DNA of 39,682 nucleotides from Basidioascus undulatus (Eukaryota): contig JTLS01000035.1 of assembly GCA_000826855.1 (NCBI GenBank), positions 1 through 39,682 on the forward strand. Direction: 5' to 3'. Shown in pieces: positions 1,140-37,485 of the stretch. Positions within the stretch are counted from its first letter, which is position 1, and each line of letters begins with the position of its first letter. A program made the translations under genes and the position numbers. The notes beneath the pieces were generated by a model. That model was not told the DNA's origin. It was given only the letters and a program-made list of their open reading frames with translations, and did not search any database.

Positions 1140-2139
1140 ATGACCGAGGTGTACGCCTCTACTTCCGCGCAGCCCAACGGCGACGCGACGCCGGACGATG
1201 TCCGACAGCACTTTAGCACTTTCACTGTGGGGAAGCTCGGTGCGTCGCGCTGGCGTCCGTGGCTCGAGACGCATGCTGACGCTGCGTGGGTGCTGGCACA
1301 GATGCTGGCATGGTGAGCATCGCCGTCCGACTGTCTGGCGTGGAAGCCGTGACTGAGCTTGACCTTGCGACAGGCGATCCTGATCGGCGAGCGCGCCTCG
1401 CTCATCGAGTTCCCCTCCCTCCTACTGCCCCCCGGCGTGACAGCAGGCAGCATCGTGAACATCGCGGTGCACCGGAACGTGCCCGCCGAGCGCGCGCACG
1501 CGTCGGCCTTCTGGCAGCTCCAGCGCGAGATCCTCGACACGTACGGGATCGAGACGCCCCAGGCGCCGGTGCTCACAGTGCGCAACGTCACGCAGACGAG
1601 CGTCGCGCTCGAGTGGGAGCCCCTCCAGCTCGCGACCGCCAAGCTCCGCAGCTTGGACATCTACCGCAATGGACAGAGGCTCGCGGCGATCCCGAATCCG
1701 GGGCATAATGTCACTAGTGCGTGTCTGTCTACGTTGTGGGGAGGGAGGAGAGATTGATGGAACTTTGGTTGGAACAGCCAAGCTCTCCGGCCTAGCGCTC
1801 TCAACCGAATATACGTTCCACCTCGTCCTGCGCACGACAGCGGGCACCTTCCCCTCCGAGGTCCTCCGCGTCAAGACGCACGCGATCACAGACACGTCCG
1901 GCATCAGCGTATGCTTTGGGCCCGTCGCGGACGCGGACCTCCTCGCGGCCGCGAAGGACGCGGTCGGCGAGATGGGCGCGCGCTGGAGCGAGCGCGTCAC
2001 GATCGACACGACGCACTACGTGTGCACTACCCCCGGCGGGGGGGTTGCGGGACCGAGCGTCGAGTACCAGAAGGCACTTCAGGCGAGCATCCCGGTTGTG
2101 CAGCCTCAGTGGATTCTGGCGTGCCACCAGGAGAAGAAG
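1140..2139 (+). CDS. CHS5: Chitin biosynthesis / exomer protein Chs5 (N-terminal domain, FN3, BRCT); 3' end apparently missing
   Basis: FTVGKL|DAGM|AILIGERASLIEFPSLLLPPGVTAGSIVNI is the Chs5 N-terminal signature (11-nt exon 1302-1312). It is followed by FN3 (VRNVTQTSVALEWEPLQLATAKLRSLDIYRNG...KLSGL) and BRCT (TIDTTHYVCT...IPVVQPQWILAC). GTGCGT donor at 2140. Confidence 0.92.
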
Positions 2140-2180
2140 TGCGTCTCCTCCCTCCGTTTCCTCTTCTCCTGTTCCCACCT

Positions 2181-2193
2181 CCCCCCCCCCCCC
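2181..2193. repeat. 13-nt poly-C homopolymer at the CHS5 / Vps51-like junction
   Basis: Read directly from the sequence. Confidence 0.95.
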
Positions 2194-2474
2194 ATGCCTC
2201 TGACAACGCCAACTCACCGCCTCCCCCACCCGCCTCCCCCACATCTCCCACATCCCGACGCCCCGACACCCTCAAGCTCCTGGGCAAGATCGCCGGGCTG
2301 CCGGACAGGCTGGCGGAGCTCCTCGATGCGGGTGAGCGCGAACGCGCGCGCGCGCTGTGGGAGAGGCGCGGGAAGGTCGTGCGAGGATGGGAGGAGCGGG
2401 GTGTGCGCGGCGCGAGAGAAATCATGGAAGAGTGCGAGGAGGTGTTGAGGGCTGCGGAGGACGTGGACAGCTAG
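2194..2474 (+). CDS. Orphan 3' coding fragment resembling the C-terminus of fungal Vps51 (GARP subunit)
   Basis: IAGLPDRLAELLDAGERERARALWERRGKVVRGWEERGVRGAREIMEECEEVL* resembles, from recall, the LPxRL...G...A...W...W...GV.G...C helical tail of small fungal Vps51 proteins. No start codon or N-terminal domain is present upstream. Confidence 0.5.
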
Positions 2475-2650: not shown

Positions 2651-4257
2651 TCACCCATCCCGCCGCTCCGACTCCCTCTCCCTCTCCGGATCCCGCTGCG
2701 GCCGCGGAAGACCAACCGCAGGCGACGGTCGGCTGAGTACGCCAAAGGGCGAGCTCATTGCCGCCGCGGAGCCCGTCGCGCGGAGGGAGTTGCCCTGGCG
2801 TGCGGGGAGTGAGGGGATCGCGAAGCCGTCCCTCCCCCCGGCGGCGGCTGTTCGTTGTTGGCGCCGCTCGCCACGTGGGAGAAGCGTTGGGAGCGAGGCG
2901 GTATGTGCTGATGCGCTCGACGCCCAAGGCACGGCGGCCACGGCTAAAGGTGCCGAGCCTGCCCCGTCCGCCCACGGCGCCCTAGTCCCCACCGCCGCGC
3001 CTCCACCGGGCGCTTCCTCCAGCATTCTTCCCTCCTTCCCCTCTTTCGCTACTCCCATCCCCTCCTCCGCCTCCCATGGTAACAGCCCGCCGAAAACGAC
3101 GTGCTGCATAACGACGCGTTTCCGGAGCACCTCCGCGTCGTACATCTTCAGCATGCCCGAGTTGACCTTGGCCCAGCGCGCGACGGTCGTCGCGATGCTG
3201 TGCAGCTGCGGACTATGTTCGTGCCATGGCCCGCGCTTGAATTGCGCGATGCGCGAGATGTTTTGCGTGTAGAGGTTGATCGTAGGTGAGGGGACGGGCG
3301 GGTCGGCGAGGGAGAGGTGGGGCGGGGATTGGGATGCTGTGCGGGCAGGAGGGGGTCGGTTAGCGAGGCAACGCAGGAAAGGAGGGATGTGAGGGGAGGA
3401 GGACGAACACCGGACTTGCGCAGACCCAAAGATGTACGGCACAAAGCAGTAATCGTCGAGCCCCCAGACACCGTGGCTCCCCGCCGGCTCGAGCTTGTAC
3501 GTGCTCTCGAGCCTGAAGCAGACATCGAGATACCGCGCCAAGACGCGGAGGACGAGCGCGCGCTCTTCCTCCGCCGCCTGCTGCGTGAATCCTAGCTCGT
3601 GCAGCCCGAGGAGGAAAAGGAGGAAAGGCACCTCGTGCCCGGACCCATAGTCGATGCGAACGAACGAGCCGAAGGAGGCGAGGAGGTAGGGCGTGAGGTG
3701 GGGGATCGCGGGGCGTAGGGACTTGGGGAGGAGGGTGGAGAGGAGGGTGGGGGCGCGCTGCGGCGGATGGAGGGGAGGAAGGGGTGAGGAAGGGGTGAGG
3801 GCGTGGTGGGAAAGGCAAGGGACGGACCTCTTCGAGTCTTGCGCCCCAGTCACGGAATGCGAGGTTCCCGAATCGCTGGGGTGTAGGCTTAGGCGGGATG
3901 TCGGTCGTCCATCTGTCGAGCTCGTCCAGCATCGCGAGCAGCTTGCGGATCGGCTGTTGTACACCGCCCACCCACTTCCCCCATCAGTCTTCTCCCTTCA
4001 TTTCTTCATATCATCGCTTTGTCCAGGACCAAAACACTCACCTCGCTCACCCCCTCCTCAATCACCTTGTCCGGCAGCGGCGTATCCACCACCGCCTCAT
4101 TGAGCGTCCGCACAAAGAGCGTATACCGCGCGTACGCCTTCGAGCGCAGGAAGACCGGCATGTCCTCCTCTGTGAAGATGCGCCGCTGCGGGAGCGGCGC
4201 CAAGACAAGCTCGGATATTGGGATGTGCGGGAGAGGTGGGAGCGCGGGGGAGCTCAT
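2651..4257 (-). CDS. Serine/threonine phosphatase 2A activator (PTPA, Rrd1/Rrd2/Ypa family)
   Basis: Family motifs PQRFGNLAFRDW, SFGSFVRIDYGSGHE, YKLEPAGSHGVWGLDDYCFVPYIFGSAQ, KRGPWHEHSPQL and GMLKMYDAEVLRKRVVMQH; three GT-AG introns; low-complexity C-terminal tail. Confidence 0.95.
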
Positions 4258-30674: not shown

Positions 30675-32902
30675 ATGGTGAAGGATCCGGTTTACTACGA
30701 TTTGCTAGAGGTGCGCATTCGTGGCCTTACAACCCGCAGCGACCAGGACTGTCAGGCTGACAACGCGACCGAACTCGAACGCTCTGTCTAGGTCTCTCCC
30801 GATGCAGACGACATCGCATTGAAGAAGGCGTACCGCAAGGCCGCAATCAAGTGGCACCCGGACAAAGTCCATCTCGCTTCTCCCAGCAGATCTCGCGCCT
30901 TCCCTTCCCGAGAAGACGCTTAAACGTCTCCCTCCGCTGCCAGAATCCCTCTCCGGAAGCCGAGGCGCGCTTCCAGGCGATTGGCGAGGCGTATGCGGTG
31001 CTGAAGGACCCGCACGCTCGGGCATGGTATGATAAGAACGGCGTGAAAGAAGCGGGTGCGGCCGATCAGGAGGTCAACCCTGAGGAGCTGTTCGGTCAGG
31101 TGTGTCTCTAGGAGAAATTGACTGGTGATGCAGGGAGCTGATAAGATGTGGCGGTAGATGTTCGGAGGAGACGCGTTCAGGGATTATGTGCGTCTGATGC
31201 GAAGCGGGGGTATCGGTTGAGGGCGAGGGTGGGCGTCAGGGTTGATCGTGTCGGACCGATCAGATTGGGGAGTTCTCCCTGGTGAAGGACCTCAGTGGGC
31301 GGATGGAGGTGAGTCCTAATTCTGGGATAGGCGTTGACGAAGAGAGGAAGGACCGCTGATGGTGAATTGGCTGTGATGCAGGCGACTATGACCGAGGAGG
31401 AGAAGGCCGAGCTGGAGAAGGCTGCGGCCGAGGCCTCCGGCGCTGCGTCCCCCGCCCCGACACCCGCGCTCGACGAGAAGGCGCACGCCGAGCCCGCAGC
31501 TGCGGCTGCGGCTGCGGCGGACGGGGAGGCCAAGAAAGAGAAGGAGAAGGAGGAGAAGAAGAAGAGCAAGAAGCTCACGCCGGAGCAGAAGGAGAAGCTG
31601 GAGAAGTTAGAGACAGAGTCGGAGAAGGCACGGGAGGAGGTACGTCTTCGCGAGGAGGGGTGATATAGGCTTGGCGCTGACCGTGCATGGGGAACGGTGC
31701 CGCAGCGGTTGGAGAACCTCACCAAAGCACTGAAGGAGCGCTTGCGAGCGTACGTCGAGGCGAAGGACCCTGGCTCGAAGGACGACCCCGAGACGCATGC
31801 GTTCGAGGCGCGCGTGCGACGCGAGGCGGAGGATCTGAAGCTCGAGTCGTTCGGTGTCGAGGTGCGCTGGCCACTTTCATCCCGCTCGTAAGCATCCGGG
31901 TGGATTCTGACTTGCCTCTTACATTCAACCGCCCGGTTCAGCTCCTGCACACTATAGGCAGCATCTACCTCACCAAGGGCTCGTCGTACATCAAGTCGCG
32001 CAAGGGCTTCCTCGGCCTGCCTGGCTTCTTCAGCCGCATCAAGGAGAAGGGCGCGATCATCAAGGAGGGGTGGGGCCTGCTGGGGTCTGCGTGCGTCTCG
32101 CTTCTTACCTACGTTGACTGCAGCGGTCTGGCGGGGGATTGGCTGATGCATCTAGGTGCATTTGGCGCCACAGCGTAGGCGCGCAGATGGCGATGGAGGA
32201 GATGAAGTGAGTGACTTCCCCGGGATAGGATGCGTGATCTGACAGTGTCCTCGATACTTCTAGCAAGCGACAAGAGCAGGGCGAAGTCGCGCAGGAAGAG
32301 CTCGAGGCGCTCGGTGCGGACCTGACAGCGAAGGTACGCCTCATTCACCCCGTTTCAGTCCGGCGCAAAACGACTAACGCTCGTCATCTTTCAGCTCCTG
32401 CTCGCCTCCTGGCGCGCCGCGCGGTTCGAGGCGAACGGTGTCCTGCGCGAGGTGTGCGAGCGCGTCCTGAGCGAGAAGGGCGTCAGCGACACGGTCTTGC
32501 TCAACCGGGCAAAGGTAAACACGCCCCTTTCTGTCTCCTTGAGCTTCCCATTACGTCTTTCTGGAGGGTATTGACGCGACGGCGTGAGTGCAGGGCCTCA
32601 TGACCATCGGCGCGCTGTTCCGCTCTGTGCAGCCTGACGAGTCGGACGAGGAGCGACGCGAGCTGGAGCGGTGCGTCCCGTTGCCCTTTCCACCCTCTCA
32701 ACCTCTTCCTCGCTCGTTGGAGGCTATCATCTCACTTGCGAGTGAACGCATTCGCGCCTGTTCCAGACTCGTCGCGGAGGCAGGGAAGAAGAAGAGCAAG
32801 AAGGACAAGGCCAAGGCCGCGGGCGGCAGCGGCAGCGGCAGCAAGGTCGCCAGCCCCAAGGCGACCAGCCCGCCGGGCTCCCCCAAGCAGCCCAAGGCAT
32901 GA
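30675..32902 (+). CDS. DJP1: DnaJ co-chaperone with C-terminal DnaJ-X domain (Djp1/Caj1 family)
   Basis: MVKDPVYYDLLE|VSPDA...LKKAYRKAAIKWHPDK|NP...FQAIGEAYAVL (J domain with HPD), MFGGDAFRDYIGE, and X-domain AEDLKLESFGVELLHTIGSIY. Confidence 0.9.
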
Positions 32903-33895
32903 GCGGGTGCTGATTAACGAGTGGTCGTCTTCTTCCTTCAGCTTTCCTGTTCATGTCCTTGTGCCTCACATAGATTAGCCTAATAATTCTGCCACGCCCT
33001 CTTCTTTTTCGTGTTTTGGCCCTGTCAGTCCCTGTTTGCAGCATTGGCCCGTTTGCATGCCATTAGCCGATGCCGTACTTCCGCTGCTGTGTTTGTGGAA
33101 CGCATAATACACAACTTGCTCTGCGTTTCGTCATGTTTAAAAGCGTACAGCTAACCTGTTTCCAAGTACACTGTTGTCATGATTCAATAGCATGGCAGGT
33201 CCTTTACATTTGCATCGTCAGTCCATTCGGACGATGTTGACCTTGTCGTTCAGTCCTGCCCTCGCTTTCTGCTAGCAATGAACCCCTCTAGGTAACTAGA
33301 ACCTTCACGAACAGACCATCAAAGCTAATATTCCGAGCAGATCTTTGATCTGTTCGGTTGGAACTGTAGTCCGGATGAGTCCAAAGAGGGCACCATCGAC
33401 GGTCACATCTCGAAACGAACTTGCAGAGGGCGGCAAAGGCGGTCCGGCCACATGATAAGGTTCATTCGATCGGCTTGAAAAGCGTGGCCCTGCTCAGCTG
33501 ATCAGCCTCCGCTCGATGTTTGCCTGAAGGGTTGGCATTCTGCGACGGAAACGACGACGGTCCGTTGTTTTCACAGGTGGAGCGTTGGGGTCCTCTCCTT
33601 AAAACTCACTCACTCGCCCCCCGGCCCCAACAGCTGTCCTCCGGACCGCCCAAATCAGCCCCCCCTTGAATATACGACCGTGCTCCCGCTCTCTCCGTCG
33701 ACCTCTGTGCTTCTCGCGTACTCTCGCACGAGGTCACACACCTCGAATGCGCACGAGGTTCGGGTCCATGGCGTGAACCCCCCCCCGGTCGTACAAGTGC
33801 CGCGACCTCCGCCCACACCTCATTTTTCTGCTCTGCCTGGTTTTACGCCACTCTCACGCATACACTCATACACATACACTTACGACGAGCACTAC

Positions 33896-36800
33896 ATGGG
33901 TTTTGGTTACAACATCGTTGTAGCGGTCTTCGCTGCGATCGGTGTGTCTTTGGCTCTCTTCAACCCGCCGGCAGCCCATTCTGACTGCATCAACACTGCA
34001 GGGGCGTTTTTGTTTGGCTGTATGTGTTGGTCTCCCCCTCGCACAGCAGATCAGATTGAGCTCATTTTGGCCTTGCACCGGGTGCTCAGACGACAGCGGT
34101 ATCATCACGAGCGTCATCTCGCCTGAGTGCGCAACTCCTGCCCGACAGCTTGGGGTGTATGCTTTCCCTGACCTCATTGCCGTTTTCCAGCTACCACGTC
34201 TTTCGGAGGGATTTCAATTCTCCTGGTGATGACCTGACTGGTGCAATAGGTACACATCGTGTCTGCAGCCTCTTTTCGCGAACGAGCTGACACACGTCGG
34301 TTAATTTCTCAGTTTCTGTCTTCGCCGGTGGATGTGAGGCAGTGCGCCACCCTGATCTGTTGAACCAATGCTGACTTCTATCGGTTACAGGTTTCTTCGG
34401 TGCTGGACTCGCGGGGTATTCAGCCAACCGCTTCGGGCGAAAGCGAACAATTCAGCTTGGATGTGCCATCGCTCTGCTGGGATGCTCGTCAGTCGTCGCC
34501 CGTCTCTTCCTGTATTTCGATCAGCCTCTGACCTCCGTCCTACTTACGAATTCAACAGGTTGCAAACTGGAGCGCAGTGAGTCCTTGCGAGTGTGCGCAT
34601 CGGATGTGTTCTCTGACGGCAGCCAACAGCAACATTGCGACGCTGCTCATTGGCCGCTTGATAACAGGATTCGCTATCGGAGTTCTATCTATGATTACTC
34701 CTCTCTACCAGTAAGTATCGTATACAAAACATGTTGCTGTCGATGTAGGCTGAGCGGGGACCACAGATCCGAAACCGCCCATCCCAAGTACCGCGGTTTC
34801 CTCGTCGGAACCACGCAACAGATGATCGGCGTAGGATTCATTACGGCCAACTGGATCGGATACGGGTGCCAGTACTTGGAGAACTCGGGGCAATATCGGT
34901 TGCCCCTCGGCATCCAGCTTATCCCGGCCGTCCTCCTCCTCGTCGGCATGCAGTTCTGCCCCTTCAGCCCTCGGTGGCGTGAGTGCTGGATCTCTCCTCC
35001 TAATGTGTCCGGATGGTTTAATTAATTTGTGCACAGTCATTGAACAGGGACGAGAGGAGGAAGCTCGTCGCGCGCTGACGAAGTTGCACGGCAACGGTAA
35101 AAATGACGAATGGCTTGACAAGGTGCGTTCAAGAAAGAATGGACAGCGTGTGTCCGCCGGCTGTCATTGAGTCCTTCTCCGATAGCAATTTACGGAGATG
35201 GTTGAGCAAATTCGGTACGAGAAGGTCAACGAGTCGCATAGCTGGAAGGAGTTGGTCAACACCCGCCCCATGCTCAGTACGCCGCCTTCCCGTACAGTTG
35301 ACGGCTCTTGGGTGGCGTTGACGAGACTCTCCTCAACTTCTGCAGAGCGAACATTGCTCGCATGCGGGGTGCAGATGTTTGGGCAATGCACAGGCAAGCC
35401 GATTCGTTTTCATAGAATGAAGATTGCACGCAACTTACCACGCAACTTACCACTTACAACGCGTTTCATTGGCGCATCAGGCATCAGTACGTTCTTTCAT
35501 GATACCACGAATGGCTTATTTTAGCGAATATAACCTGACCCGCCTTTCTACAGAGTGCGTGTGTCCTCGATTACTCAATTCCGTGCCGGATACTGACCGG
35601 ATGCTCGCTCGTCAGCTTCATCAAGTGCGTCCCAAAACTCTTATTCCCACTGCGGCGCACTGACGCACCAGATACCACAGCTACTACGGCCCGGAGATGT
35701 ATCGGCTATTGGGGATTCCAGAGGGAAGCGGACAATACCTTCTCATCACGGGAATCTAGTACGTCGTCACCGCGCTCTTGTCTGTCTGGATGAATGCGTT
35801 AACGGCAATGATCTTTCAGTGGTGTTGTTGGGCCTATCAGTACGTGGACCGATGCATCGTCCTCGAAGTCCACATAGACTGATCACGGCCCGTTGATAGC
35901 GAACTTCTTCTTGTGCGTAACCTGGAGCACAGCGCTGGTCATTCTCCAGCTCAAAGCCATTCCATCCCAGCATCACCTTCTTGATCGATCGAGTTGGACG
36001 GAAGATTCCCCTTGCGATTGGCAGCTTCGGCATCGCTGTCGCCCTTTCCGTGGAAGCTGCCATGTAAGTCAAGCTAAGCCCCCGTACTGCTTTCCTTGTA
36101 CTGACTGCAGTGGACAATTCGCGCGTAGCAACTCGGAGTTTGACCCGGAGAAGGAAGAAGAAGCTACCAATCTCGACGCCCAACGTGCCGGTGAGTTGCC
36201 TCGGAGGATTCTGGCATACTTCACTGCTGATAACGGTGGGGTCACCTTAGGCATCACGATGTGTACGTGTATCGCGAGACAGACGCCCTCGGCAGACCAC
36301 GGCTCACTGCTGGTCGCCTTCAGTCTTCCTAGCATCCATCATCTTTTCGATCTCGTACGGTCCCATCAGCTGGGTTTACGTGTCCGAGATCTTCCCGAGT
36401 ATGTCTTGCGATGTGTCTCTATCTCGTAGACATCCTGACCGTCTTTACTCGCAGTGCGTGTCCGAGCGCAGGGCAACGCAGTTGCGACGATGTGTAAGTC
36501 TTTCCGATTCTTGTCCCTTATATGCCAGTGCCGGATGCTGACTGTCTATGTAAAGCAAACTGGTGAGACAGGCTGTCGCAACATCTAAGGATCCTGCTGA
36601 TGGCTGTCGAGCAGGGCCTTGAATGTCCTCTTCGCTCAGACGGGTTTGCGAGGAATGAACGCTATTCGAGTGAGCACCTCCATCTCGATGATGTTCGCCA
36701 CTGTAAAGGTTCCAACTGACGCCCATTGCTTGAAAGTGGAAATTTTACTTGATCTGGGTCATTATCAACATTTGCGTGAGTGCTCCTCAAATAGTGGAGG

Positions 36801-37242
36801 TCTCCAATGCCGTCGCAGACTTATTTTCTCTGGCAGACTGGCCTCATCGGTGCGCAATCCAGCGCTTGTTTTCTTCGTATCCCTTCTCATCGGCACTTCC
36901 GCAGTCATTTTCTTCTTCGTCGAAACGAAGGGTGCGTACGATGCCCGGATGCAGTGCTTCGATGCTGGAGCTGACGCAATCTTTCCCGGAGTTCAACAGG
37001 TCGTACACTCGAAGGTCAGTTGTCTTGACTGCGGAGATTCTCAGAATTCCCAGCTGAAGCCCGGATATTCCTTATCGCCAGAAATGGACGCCCTTTTCGA
37101 CGACCAGAGGATCAGCCATGCTTTGGCCGACGGCCGTGCCTCTGGAATTGCTTCTGGAAGACTTACCAAGGCCGACTCGTTCAGCGATCTGTCCAAAGAG
37201 GCGGAGGTGCATACCGAGCATCATCAGAAGGGGGAGGTCTGA
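33896..37242 (+). CDS. MFS sugar porter (hexose/monosaccharide transporter family), about 30 exons
   Basis: Spliced product includes GAFLFGYDSGIITSVI, NRFGRKRTIQ, LQTGA, GRLITGFAIG, PLYQSETAHPKYRG, RLPLGIQLIPA, PFSPRWL, GQCTGINFINYYGP, IDRVGRK, ISYGPISWVYVSEIFPMRVRAQG, SNWALN and VETKGRTLEEMDALF. Confidence 0.95.
35554..35554 (+). other. Predicted single-nucleotide exon (A) of the sugar porter gene
   Basis: Context CTGAC...TTTCTACAG|A|GTGCGT. It is required to keep frame and to encode the Asn of G-I-N. Confidence 0.85.
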
Positions 37243-37485
37243 GGCCGTTGTATCATCCTTGATGTTGGTTGTAACGCATGTAATGCTTCTGGGTCACTCG
37301 TTTCACCTGCTCGAAAAGCTGTGTAGCATTCAACAAACGGGGCGGCCCAAGTCAACTTTCCATGTCGCAGTATATAACGCAAGGCGCAGGGCAAGCCAGC
37401 TACTGAACAAGCGCTACTGCCACCAAAACGTTGCACGTTCGTGCATCTCAAGTATGAATGAACGTCGCAAGGGTTTATGCCCAAA

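What the first reader, a model, noticed from the sequence alone, without database searches (positions are those of the whole stretch)
35487..35615. Single-nucleotide exon (A at 35554) in the sugar transporter gene
Seen: two complete introns separated by one base. Intron 35487-35553 has a GTACGT donor, CTGAC branch at 35535 and TTTCTACAG acceptor. Intron 35555-35615 has a GTGCGT donor, CTGAC branch at 35593 and GTCAG acceptor. Joining TGC ACA G|GC ATC A|A|C TTC ATC AA|C TAC TAC GGC CCG gives CTGINFINYYGP, the conserved sugar-porter QxxGINxxxYY motif. The Asn codon AAC is built from three exons, one base each, and skipping the A shifts the frame. Known: 1-nt exons are very rare (Arabidopsis APC11 is a described case) and are missed by gene finders. 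Inference: the two introns must be removed sequentially by intron definition, since both splice sites cannot be occupied at once.
Basis: partly seen in the sequence, partly recalled or inferred. Interest (0 to 1): 0.9.

Follow-up and report, generated by a model that had tools for sequence, protein, structure and literature searches.

The report
Real one-base exon, fungal sugar transporter
A fungal sugar-transporter gene cut into 30 pieces really does contain an exon only one base long, and a spliced transcript confirms it, but such exons are already described in plants and in two other fungi.

Summary
Two complete GT-AG introns (35487-35553 and 35555-35615), each with its own CTGAC branch motif, flank a single A at 35554. 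They lie in a sugar-porter gene on the + strand (33896-37242; 29 introns, 512 aa).

Run X3 holds one 2706-nt contig at depth 147 that lacks all 26 introns it spans. Between exons 12 and 16 it carries exactly 16 letters, which is 6 + 1 + 9. Skipping the A would give 15 letters, and the rival donor at 35491 would give 19.

Two sets of genomic contigs match the window with no differences.

This is not a new kind of thing. One-base exons are published for Arabidopsis APC11, for Fusarium CYP621A, and for 13 genes of Coprinopsis cinerea.

At this gene's intron density (one per 53 nt), random placement gives a one-base exon in 41% of trials. Homologues suggest that the upstream intron position is old and the downstream intron is the newcomer. 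Removal of the two introns one after the other is inferred, not shown.

The parts
33896..37242 (+). Sugar-porter (MFS) gene with 30 exons and 29 introns, giving a 1539-nt CDS and 512 aa
   Evidence: The model was built from coordinates. Exon 9 matches Pfam Sugar_tr at 7.9e-20. Introns 4 to 29 are all absent from the X3 contig. Exons 1 to 3 rest on the reading frame and on similarity to L001 only.
35346..35393 (+). Exon 12 (48 nt)
   Evidence: The X3 piece runs to 35396 because the next exon starts with the same 3 letters as the intron.
35394..35480 (+). Intron 12 (87 nt), GC-AG, phase 1 of Gly 272
   Evidence: Of the shifts allowed by the 3-letter ambiguity, only this one has GC..AG ends. Rhizoctonia homologues P0023 and P0062 carry a 20-residue insertion at the same place.
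35481..35486 (+). Exon 13 (6 nt)
35487..35553 (+). Intron 13 (67 nt), donor GTACGT, CTGAC at 35535-35539, with 15 nt from its A to the acceptor end; phase 1 of Asn 274
   Evidence: It is absent from the X3 contig. The same position is read through as coding sequence in 19 homologues.
35554..35554 (+). Exon 14: a single A, the middle base of Asn codon 274
   Evidence: The transcript contig carries 64 letters between the pieces ending at 35276 and starting at 35681, which is 48 + 6 + 1 + 9. This is the only all-canonical threading among 436.
35555..35615 (+). Intron 14 (61 nt), donor GTGCGT, CTGAC at 35593-35597, with 19 nt from its A to the acceptor end; phase 2 of Asn 274
   Evidence: It is absent from the X3 contig.
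35616..35624 (+). Exon 15 (9 nt)
35625..35680 (+). Intron 15 (56 nt), GT-AG, phase 2 of Asn 277
35681..35758 (+). Exon 16 (78 nt)
   Evidence: X3 piece, record positions 720-797, with 0 other letters.
36528..36542 (+). A 15-nt block in intron 23 that matches 35583-35597 of intron 14 with one mismatch, ending at the branch motif
   Evidence: The 10 nt upstream of CTGAC agree at 9 of 10 positions; the next best of the 91 intron pairs agrees at 6 of 10.

Best explanation
The A at 35554 is a true internal exon one nucleotide long. It lies between two ordinary short spliceosomal introns and supplies the middle base of the conserved Asn in the sugar-porter G-I-N motif. Both introns are removed and the A is kept in the mature mRNA.

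My reading of the mechanism is intron definition. Each intron is recognised across itself by its own donor, branch motif and acceptor, and the exon contributes nothing to recognition. The two spliceosomes cannot sit on adjoining sites at once, so the introns come out one after the other, in either order. The first ligation leaves the A attached to the neighbouring exon as part of an ordinary splice site for the second reaction.

The arrangement most likely arose when a second intron (intron 14) was gained one base downstream of an older intron position (intron 13). This happened in a gene so crowded with introns that exon lengths look randomly distributed.

Shown: the genomic anatomy, the frame, and the presence of the A in a spliced transcript contig. 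Inferred: that X3 is cDNA, stepwise removal, and the order of intron gain.
For: Anatomy. Both introns have typical lengths (67 and 61 nt; the gene's median is 61 and its range 52-87). Each has CTGAC 15 or 19 nt from its acceptor.

Frame. The ORF of 512 aa is intact only with the A. The Asn column is N in 41 of 67 homologues, and 41 of 67 are ungapped over 19 residues around it.

Transcript. Run X3 gave one contig of 2706 nt at depth 147. It has 0 other letters in the listed pieces and lacks introns 4 to 29. Between 35396 and 35681 it carries 13 letters, which together with the 3 ambiguous ones make 16 = 6 + 1 + 9. They are identical to the model.

Uniqueness. Only 1 of 436 threadings has all GT/GC-AG ends.

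Genome sequence. The contigs of X1 and X2 cover 33800-37300 with 0 other letters and 0 gaps, and neither holds a spliced form; one record was laid from each.

Intron definition. The 29 donors are preceded by 23 different triplets, so the exon side carries no consensus. Seven other exons of 7 to 18 nt are also kept in the contig (table 5c).

Origin. At the Asn, 19 homologues read G-[IV]-S plus extra residues. Twelve of them return to frame with D after 16 to 20 extra residues. This fits an unspliced phase-1 intron of 48 to 60 nt at the position of intron 13. No homologue shows the signature of a phase-2 intron there.
Against: The library type of X3 is not on record (listed as 'DNA?'), and no run is listed as RNA. 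That X3 is cDNA is my inference from its contig lacking 26 introns.

The evidence is one contig from one run, from the same sample as X2. Contigs drop rare variants, so an isoform that skips the A cannot be excluded.

X1 and X2 may be the source of the window, so they are not independent proof of the base call.

The transcript alone cannot say which A of the 129-nt stretch is kept. Only the splice-site rule points to 35554.

Stepwise removal and its order are untested.

The age of intron 13's position is inferred from protein sequences alone, in homologues of about 55% identity that may be paralogues. Parallel gain at the same site is possible.
Confidence: 0.9

Rival explanations
1. One long intron with a weaker donor. 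Splicing runs from GTTCTT at 35491 to the acceptor at 35615 (125 nt). This keeps the frame with one extra residue, and the internal AG-A-GT is a coincidence.
For: This model also gives an intact ORF.
Against: It predicts 19 letters between exons 12 and 16, but the contig has 16. It would put an extra residue into a block that 41 of 67 homologues read without a gap. A 125-nt intron would be longer than any of the gene's other introns, whose maximum is 87 nt.
Confidence: 0.02
2. The gene is broken or misassembled. A single 129-nt intron (35487-35615) is removed, the frame is lost, and the A only seems to rescue it.
For: Skipping the A is the simplest two-site splice, and it is what a gene finder would call (one search shows the result).
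Against: The contig carries the A, and all 26 spanned introns are cleanly removed, at depth 147. The genomic contigs of two runs agree with the window. The full model has no stop over 512 codons.
Confidence: 0.02
3. The spliced contig is not a transcript of this locus. It comes instead from a processed copy in the genome or from foreign DNA, so it says nothing about splicing here.
For: X3 is listed as 'DNA?' and no RNA holder is listed.
Against: X1 and X2, each about 34 Mb of contigs, laid only the unspliced form (one record each). X3 laid only the spliced form. The listed exon pieces have 0 other letters against the window. X3 holds 0.36 of the sampled words in 15.7 Mb, as a transcriptome would. 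Even a retrocopy would record the spliced mRNA.
Confidence: 0.03
4. The extra A comes from another A of the 35487-35615 stretch through non-canonical splice sites, or from a non-splicing event such as an untemplated addition.
For: 435 of the 436 threadings place pieces elsewhere, and the contig cannot tell them apart.
Against: Each of those threadings needs at least one junction that is neither GT-AG nor GC-AG. The 26 introns seen in this gene's transcript all fit GT/GC-AG. The A at 35554 is the only one with an acceptor, a donor and two well-placed branch motifs around it.
Confidence: 0.03

Closest known systems
Single-nucleotide exon of Arabidopsis thaliana APC11 (Guo and Liu 2015, PMC4674806; I read the abstract and the discussion)
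   Same: It is a constitutive one-base internal exon between two GT-AG introns and is needed for the frame. It was missed by annotation. The authors likewise propose intron definition with one intron removed after the other.
   Different: It is in a plant, in another gene, and was verified with GFP reporter constructs. Here the evidence is one spliced contig. Here the exon sits in a run of four introns within 16 coding bases, in a gene with 29 introns.
One-nucleotide exon of Fusarium CYP621A P450 genes (Nelson and Syed 2026, PMC12940212; I read the abstract, results and discussion)
   Same: It is fungal. One base is the middle base of a codon in a highly conserved motif, and it is confirmed by transcript reads. 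The two flanking introns together are about twice the usual intron length.
   Different: It is in an ascomycete. The exon base is G, which fits both splice-site consensuses; here it is A. Those authors favour rescue of a one-base deletion by a cryptic exon inside an old intron. Here the two introns each look complete and of normal size, and homologues point to a second intron gained beside an old one.
Ultra-short exons in the long-read annotation of Coprinopsis cinerea (PMC12230235; I read the passage in section 10)
   Same: It is a basidiomycete. The paper reports 13 one-nt, 57 two-nt and 27 three-nt exons, and states that omitting them breaks gene models. This makes the present case one of a known class in this group of fungi.
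   Different: It is a genome-wide count. I could not see which genes are involved: the readable supplements held none of my search terms, and the PDF supplements cannot be read here. The window's organism is not that species, since no homologue exceeded 73% identity over exon 9.
Spliceosomal twin introns (stwintrons) of filamentous fungi (PMC5587772, PMC6616335 and others; I saw the search listing and abstracts only)
   Same: There are two U2-type introns in direct contact that must be excised in consecutive reactions.
   Different: In a stwintron the inner intron interrupts a splice signal of the outer one, and no exon base is left between them. Here both introns are complete in the DNA and one base is retained.
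Recursive splice sites (ratchet points), as summarised in the discussion of PMC4674806
   Same: An acceptor is directly followed by a donor, and the first ligation rebuilds a 5' splice site for the next step.
   Different: A recursive site leaves nothing in the mRNA and serves the removal of long introns. Here one coding base stays and both introns are about 60 nt.

Membership tests
Single-nucleotide (1-nt) internal exon | The genomic arrangement is acceptor AG, one base, donor GT, with a complete intron on each side | tested here: met
   The donors are GTACGT and GTGCGT, CTGAC lies 15 and 19 nt from the acceptors, and the intron lengths are 67 and 61 nt.
Single-nucleotide (1-nt) internal exon | The mature transcript contains the base | tested here: met
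   The X3 contig has 16 letters between exons 12 and 16, identical to the model. The library type of X3 is not on record.
Single-nucleotide (1-nt) internal exon | Omitting the base destroys the reading frame or a conserved motif | tested here: met
   One search shows that the frame is lost and stops appear. Searches show that Asn is conserved in 41 of 67 homologues.
Single-nucleotide (1-nt) internal exon | It is not an error in the genome sequence | tested here: inconclusive
   The X1 and X2 contigs are identical to the window, but either may be the window's source. The exon pieces of the X3 contig agree as well.
Single-nucleotide (1-nt) internal exon | Inclusion is constitutive rather than alternative | not testable with these tools
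   Only contigs were available, and contigs drop rare variants.
Sugar porter family of the major facilitator superfamily (Pfam PF00083) | A significant match to the family profile | tested here: met
   Exon 9 alone scores 71.6 bits (cut-off 22.3), at profile positions 128-197 of 452. All 67 homologues carry PF00083.
Sugar porter family of the major facilitator superfamily (Pfam PF00083) | Signature motifs (names recalled from memory, not from a call): the G-R-[KR] loop, P-E-S-P-R-W, Q-x-x-G-I-N-x-x-x-Y-Y and P-E-T-K-G | tested here: met
   The model protein shows F-G-R-K-R, P-F-S-P-R-W (F in place of E), Q-C-T-G-I-N-F-I-N-Y-Y and V-E-T-K-G. Transport activity and substrate were not tested.
Stwintron (spliceosomal twin intron) | A splice signal of the outer intron exists only after the inner intron is excised | tested here: not met
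   Both introns have a complete donor, branch motif and acceptor in the DNA.
Recursive splice site (zero-nucleotide exon) | No nucleotide is retained between the two excised parts | tested here: not met
   One base is retained.

The most novel reading that the evidence does not exclude
The one-base exon is a by-product of intron saturation plus a recent intron copy. In this fungus the spliceosome imposes no lower limit on exon length, so that in a gene with an intron every 53 nt the exon lengths are simply exponential.

Intron 14 was created when a copy of intron 23 of the same gene landed one base downstream of an ancient phase-1 intron whose position is shared with ascomycetes. The two introns share a 15-nt block at the branch point. 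The route might be reverse splicing into the gene's own transcript followed by reverse transcription and recombination.

If this is right, the locus is a rare datable case of intron gain by intron duplication within one gene.
Probability: 0.12. Interest if true: 0.7.

Novelty: new member of a known kind. Interest (0 to 1): 0.5.

Why it matters
The finding gives a transcript-supported one-base exon in a further fungal gene family (a sugar porter), in a basidiomycete-like organism that is not among the published cases. It shows concretely how such exons break automatic gene models. Leaving the A out truncates the protein, and homologues in public databases carry read-through introns at the same place.

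It also puts the rarity in proportion. With 29 introns in 1539 nt, random placement alone gives a one-base exon in 41% of trials. The remarkable feature is therefore the intron density and the apparent absence of a minimum exon length, not the single exon.

The run of four introns within 16 coding bases would make a compact test piece for studying the order of splicing under intron definition.

Tried and rejected
No whole genome is held for this window, so paralogues and genome-wide counts of such exons could not be made.

No RNA holder was listed. The three runs listed are marked 'DNA?'.

X3 shows no depth over 35438-35671 (table 2). The 6-, 1- and 9-nt exons are too short to be laid and appear instead as letters between the sides of a joint.

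Earlier notes of this scan held nothing for this place, this sequence or the combined words. A search for 'microexon' returned cases in other genomes only.

The metagenome scan for orthologous loci returned 6 loci. L001, L003 and L005 cover the motif and read it without an intron, but at 27-47% identity they are not orthologues and say little. L002, L004 and L006 do not cover the motif.

Introns 13 and 14 are not copies of each other. Their local score is 12, against 11.6 +/- 2.1 for shuffled pairs.

The bare junction motif is not enriched.

The arrangement scan gave one false case at 32174.

The readable supplements of the Coprinopsis paper held none of 'microexon', 'sugar' or 'exon'. Its PDF supplements, which hold Figure S2, cannot be read here and may name the 13 genes.

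The Cryptococcus genome paper (PMC3990503) mentions microexons only as a mapping setting.

One Pfam call failed on a wrong frame and was repeated with the valid reference alone.

The long stop-to-stop frames of the rest of the window mostly gave no Pfam family: 16 of 18 had none.

Full report
WHAT IS THERE

The stretch lies in a gene on the + strand that I modelled from coordinates read off. The ATG is at 33896 and the stop at 37240-37242. There are 29 introns of 52-87 nt (median 61) and 30 exons, giving a CDS of 1539 nt and 512 residues with no internal stop.

Exon 9 alone matches Pfam Sugar_tr (PF00083) at 7.9e-20. Its best database relatives are sugar transporters of Agaricomycetes at 66-73% identity. 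Over its whole length the model is at most 58% identical to any of them; the best are Rhizoctonia solani proteins named high-affinity glucose transporter. No protein of the window's own genome is in that database. The organism is therefore a basidiomycete-like fungus that is not one of the annotated species.

Intron 13 runs 35487-35553, with donor GTACGT and CTGAC at 35535-35539. A single A sits at 35554. Intron 14 runs 35555-35615, with donor GTGCGT and CTGAC at 35593-35597.

Exon 12 (48 nt) is followed by a GC-AG intron (35394-35480), a 6-nt exon, intron 13, the A, intron 14, a 9-nt exon, intron 15 (35625-35680) and exon 16. That makes four introns within 16 coding bases, inside the most conserved motif of the family. 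The Asn codon 274 takes one base from each of three exons.

IS IT MORE THAN CHANCE?

The junction motif by itself is not: YAGNGTRNGT occurs 3 times against 2.67 expected. The whole arrangement (complete intron, one base, complete intron) occurs twice in the window, against 0.03 per shuffled window; 2 of 60 shuffles had at least one. One of the two is false. It lies at 32174, inside a coding exon of the neighbouring DnaJ-X gene. Sequence pattern alone therefore does not settle the matter.

THE DECISIVE EVIDENCE

The search for sequencing runs listed no run on record as RNA. It listed three runs marked 'DNA?'.

Laid on 33800-37300, X1 and X2 each gave one genomic contig identical to the window, with 0 other letters and 0 gaps.

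X3 comes from the same sample as X2 and holds 15.7 million letters and 0.36 of the sampled words. It gave one contig of 2706 nt at depth 147 that jumps over every intron from 4 to 29. There are 17 joints. Ten span one intron, six span two introns with a short exon printed as letters between, and one spans four introns.

That last joint runs from 35396 to 35681 and has 13 letters between. The first three letters of exon 13 are the same as the first three of intron 12, so the aligner ran on to 35396. Together this makes 16 letters, which is 6 + 1 + 9.

The record arithmetic agrees. Sixty-four contig letters lie between the pieces ending at 35276 and starting at 35681, which is 48 + 6 + 1 + 9. 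A script that rebuilt the model's string from coordinates found it identical to the 13 printed letters. Skipping the A predicts 15 letters. The only other frame-keeping model, a weak donor at 35491, predicts 19.

I enumerated all collinear ways to thread the transcript stretch through 35382-35692 with at most four introns of 30 nt or more. There are 436, and exactly one has GT-AG or GC-AG at every junction.

I take X3 to be cDNA, for three reasons. Its contig lacks 26 introns. The two 34-Mb contig sets hold only the unspliced form. X3 holds only the spliced one. This is my inference; the library type is not on record.

HOW IT MOST LIKELY WORKS

Each of the two introns is ordinary for this gene in length, donor and branch distance. 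The 29 donors are preceded by 23 different triplets, so the exon side carries no recognisable signal. Seven more exons of 7 to 18 nt are kept correctly (table 5c). This is what intron definition predicts: recognition happens across the intron and the exon is irrelevant.

The branch motif and acceptor of intron 13 lie within 20 nt of the donor of intron 14. From general knowledge of spliceosome size, which is also the argument of Guo and Liu, both cannot be occupied together. One intron must go first.

Either order works on paper. After intron 13 is removed, the A is the last base of the 5' exon before the donor of intron 14. After intron 14 is removed, the A is the first base following the acceptor of intron 13. 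None of this was tested, because contigs cannot show intermediates.

WHY HERE

The gene has one intron per 53 nt. In 20,000 random placements of 29 introns in 1539 nt, 41% gave at least one one-base exon. The mean number of internal exons of 15 nt or less was 7.0, against 8 observed. The internal exon lengths fit an exponential distribution (KS p = 0.94). The one-base exon is thus what an unconstrained, very dense intron set produces.

Other genes of the window are less broken up. One PTPA stretch of at least 229 residues is in a single frame.

Homologues give a hint on origin. In the alignment of all 67, 41 read the 19 residues around the Asn without a gap. In 20, the Asn column holds S. A pattern search also finds 20. 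One of these (P0012) is a match elsewhere in a protein that reads the motif normally.

Of the other 19, 18 continue with residues that spell a canonical donor if S is read as the first base of the Asn codon plus GT. Twelve return to frame after 16 to 20 extra residues with D, which is the last G of an acceptor plus the remaining two bases of the codon. In all 12 the residue before D can end in A.

These are gene calls that read through an unspliced intron of 48 to 60 nt in phase 1 of the same codon, which is the position of intron 13. One is named Meristemomyces frigidus, a Dothideomycete. Relatives with the mature reading are from Pseudocercospora, Lecanosticta and Hortaea.

Two Rhizoctonia proteins (Cantharellales) carry a 20-residue insertion at the position of intron 12. 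No homologue shows the signature of a phase-2 intron in the Asn codon.

I therefore think that the position of intron 13 is old and that intron 14 was added beside it. I saw no DNA of these homologues, so this is inference.

Introns 13 and 14 are not alike. Intron 14 shares a 15-nt block ending at its branch motif with intron 23, with one mismatch. The 10 nt upstream of CTGAC agree at 9 of 10 positions, and the next best of the 91 pairs agrees at 6 of 10. This was noticed after the fact. It is suggestive of intron copying and no more than that.

COMPARISON WITH WHAT IS KNOWN

One-base exons are in print for three cases:
- Arabidopsis APC11 (PMC4674806; I read the abstract and discussion).
- Twenty Fusarium CYP621A genes, with read support in two species (PMC12940212; I read the abstract, results and discussion). 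That paper calls itself the second example and the first fungal one.
- 13 genes of Coprinopsis cinerea in a long-read annotation, which also lists 57 two-nt and 27 three-nt exons (PMC12230235; I read the passage in section 10).

A plant-wide microexon pipeline (PMC8831610) I saw only in the search listing.

The present case meets the features of this class that I could test. It is not a stwintron, because both introns are complete in the DNA. It is not a recursive splice site, because a base is retained.

It differs from the Fusarium case in three ways. The base is A rather than G. It sits in a run of four introns. The likely origin is a second intron beside an old one, rather than a cryptic exon rescued inside one long intron.

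VERDICT

It is a new member of a known kind. Interest is moderate: it is a clean, transcript-backed example with a plausible origin story and a useful lesson on intron density, but it is no longer a surprise.

Noticed in passing
window 35394-35480: Intron 12 is a GC-AG intron (donor GCAAGC). The same six letters span both of its boundaries (the last three of the exon plus the first three of what follows), which is why the aligner could slide the joint by 3. The X3 contig confirms the junction.
   Followed up: partly
window 34559-34576, 35900-35912, 36251-36262, 36556-36562, 36837-36849, 37000-37014: Six further very short exons (18, 13, 12, 7, 13 and 15 nt) are all present in the spliced X3 contig as letters between joints (table 5c). 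In all, 8 of the 28 internal exons are 15 nt or shorter.
   Followed up: yes
window 35583-35597 and 36528-36542: Introns 14 and 23 share a 15-nt block with one mismatch, ending in the branch motif. No other copy with up to 3 mismatches exists in the window on either strand. This may be a trace of intron copying.
   Followed up: partly
window 33896-37242: The intron phases are skewed: 16 in phase 1, 10 in phase 2 and only 3 in phase 0. Phase 0 usually dominates in eukaryotic genes (recalled from memory, not from a call).
   Followed up: no
window 32091-32260: A look-alike arrangement (acceptor, one base, donor-like GTAGGC, with real introns nearby) lies at 32174. It is inside a coding exon of a gene whose neighbouring exon (31942-32088) matches the DnaJ-X domain at 1.1e-13. 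It is a false positive of the pattern scan.
   Followed up: yes
proteins P0023, P0062, P0036-P0064: Many public gene calls of homologous transporters carry 16 to 22 extra residues at or next to the G-I-N motif. These look like unspliced introns read as coding sequence, so the motif region is a recurrent trap for gene callers. P0016 ends with G-I-N-G-A-S-Y, which would fit an intron in phase 1 of the codon after the Asn in a basidiomycete-like homologue.
   Followed up: partly
window 2651-3997 (-) and 1459-2448 (+): Long open frames match PTPA (phosphotyrosyl phosphatase activator, 1.8e-72) and fn3_2 plus BRCT domains. These genes have much longer exons than the transporter gene. The transporter region has lower G+C (0.52-0.55) than most of the window, where it reaches 0.69.
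   Followed up: no
window beyond 37300: The X3 contig reaches record position 1486 at window position 37300 and is 2706 nt long. It therefore runs about 1.2 kb past the end of the laid stretch, which itself ends 58 nt after the stop codon. This could be a long 3' UTR or a read-through into the next gene. I did not examine it.
   Followed up: no
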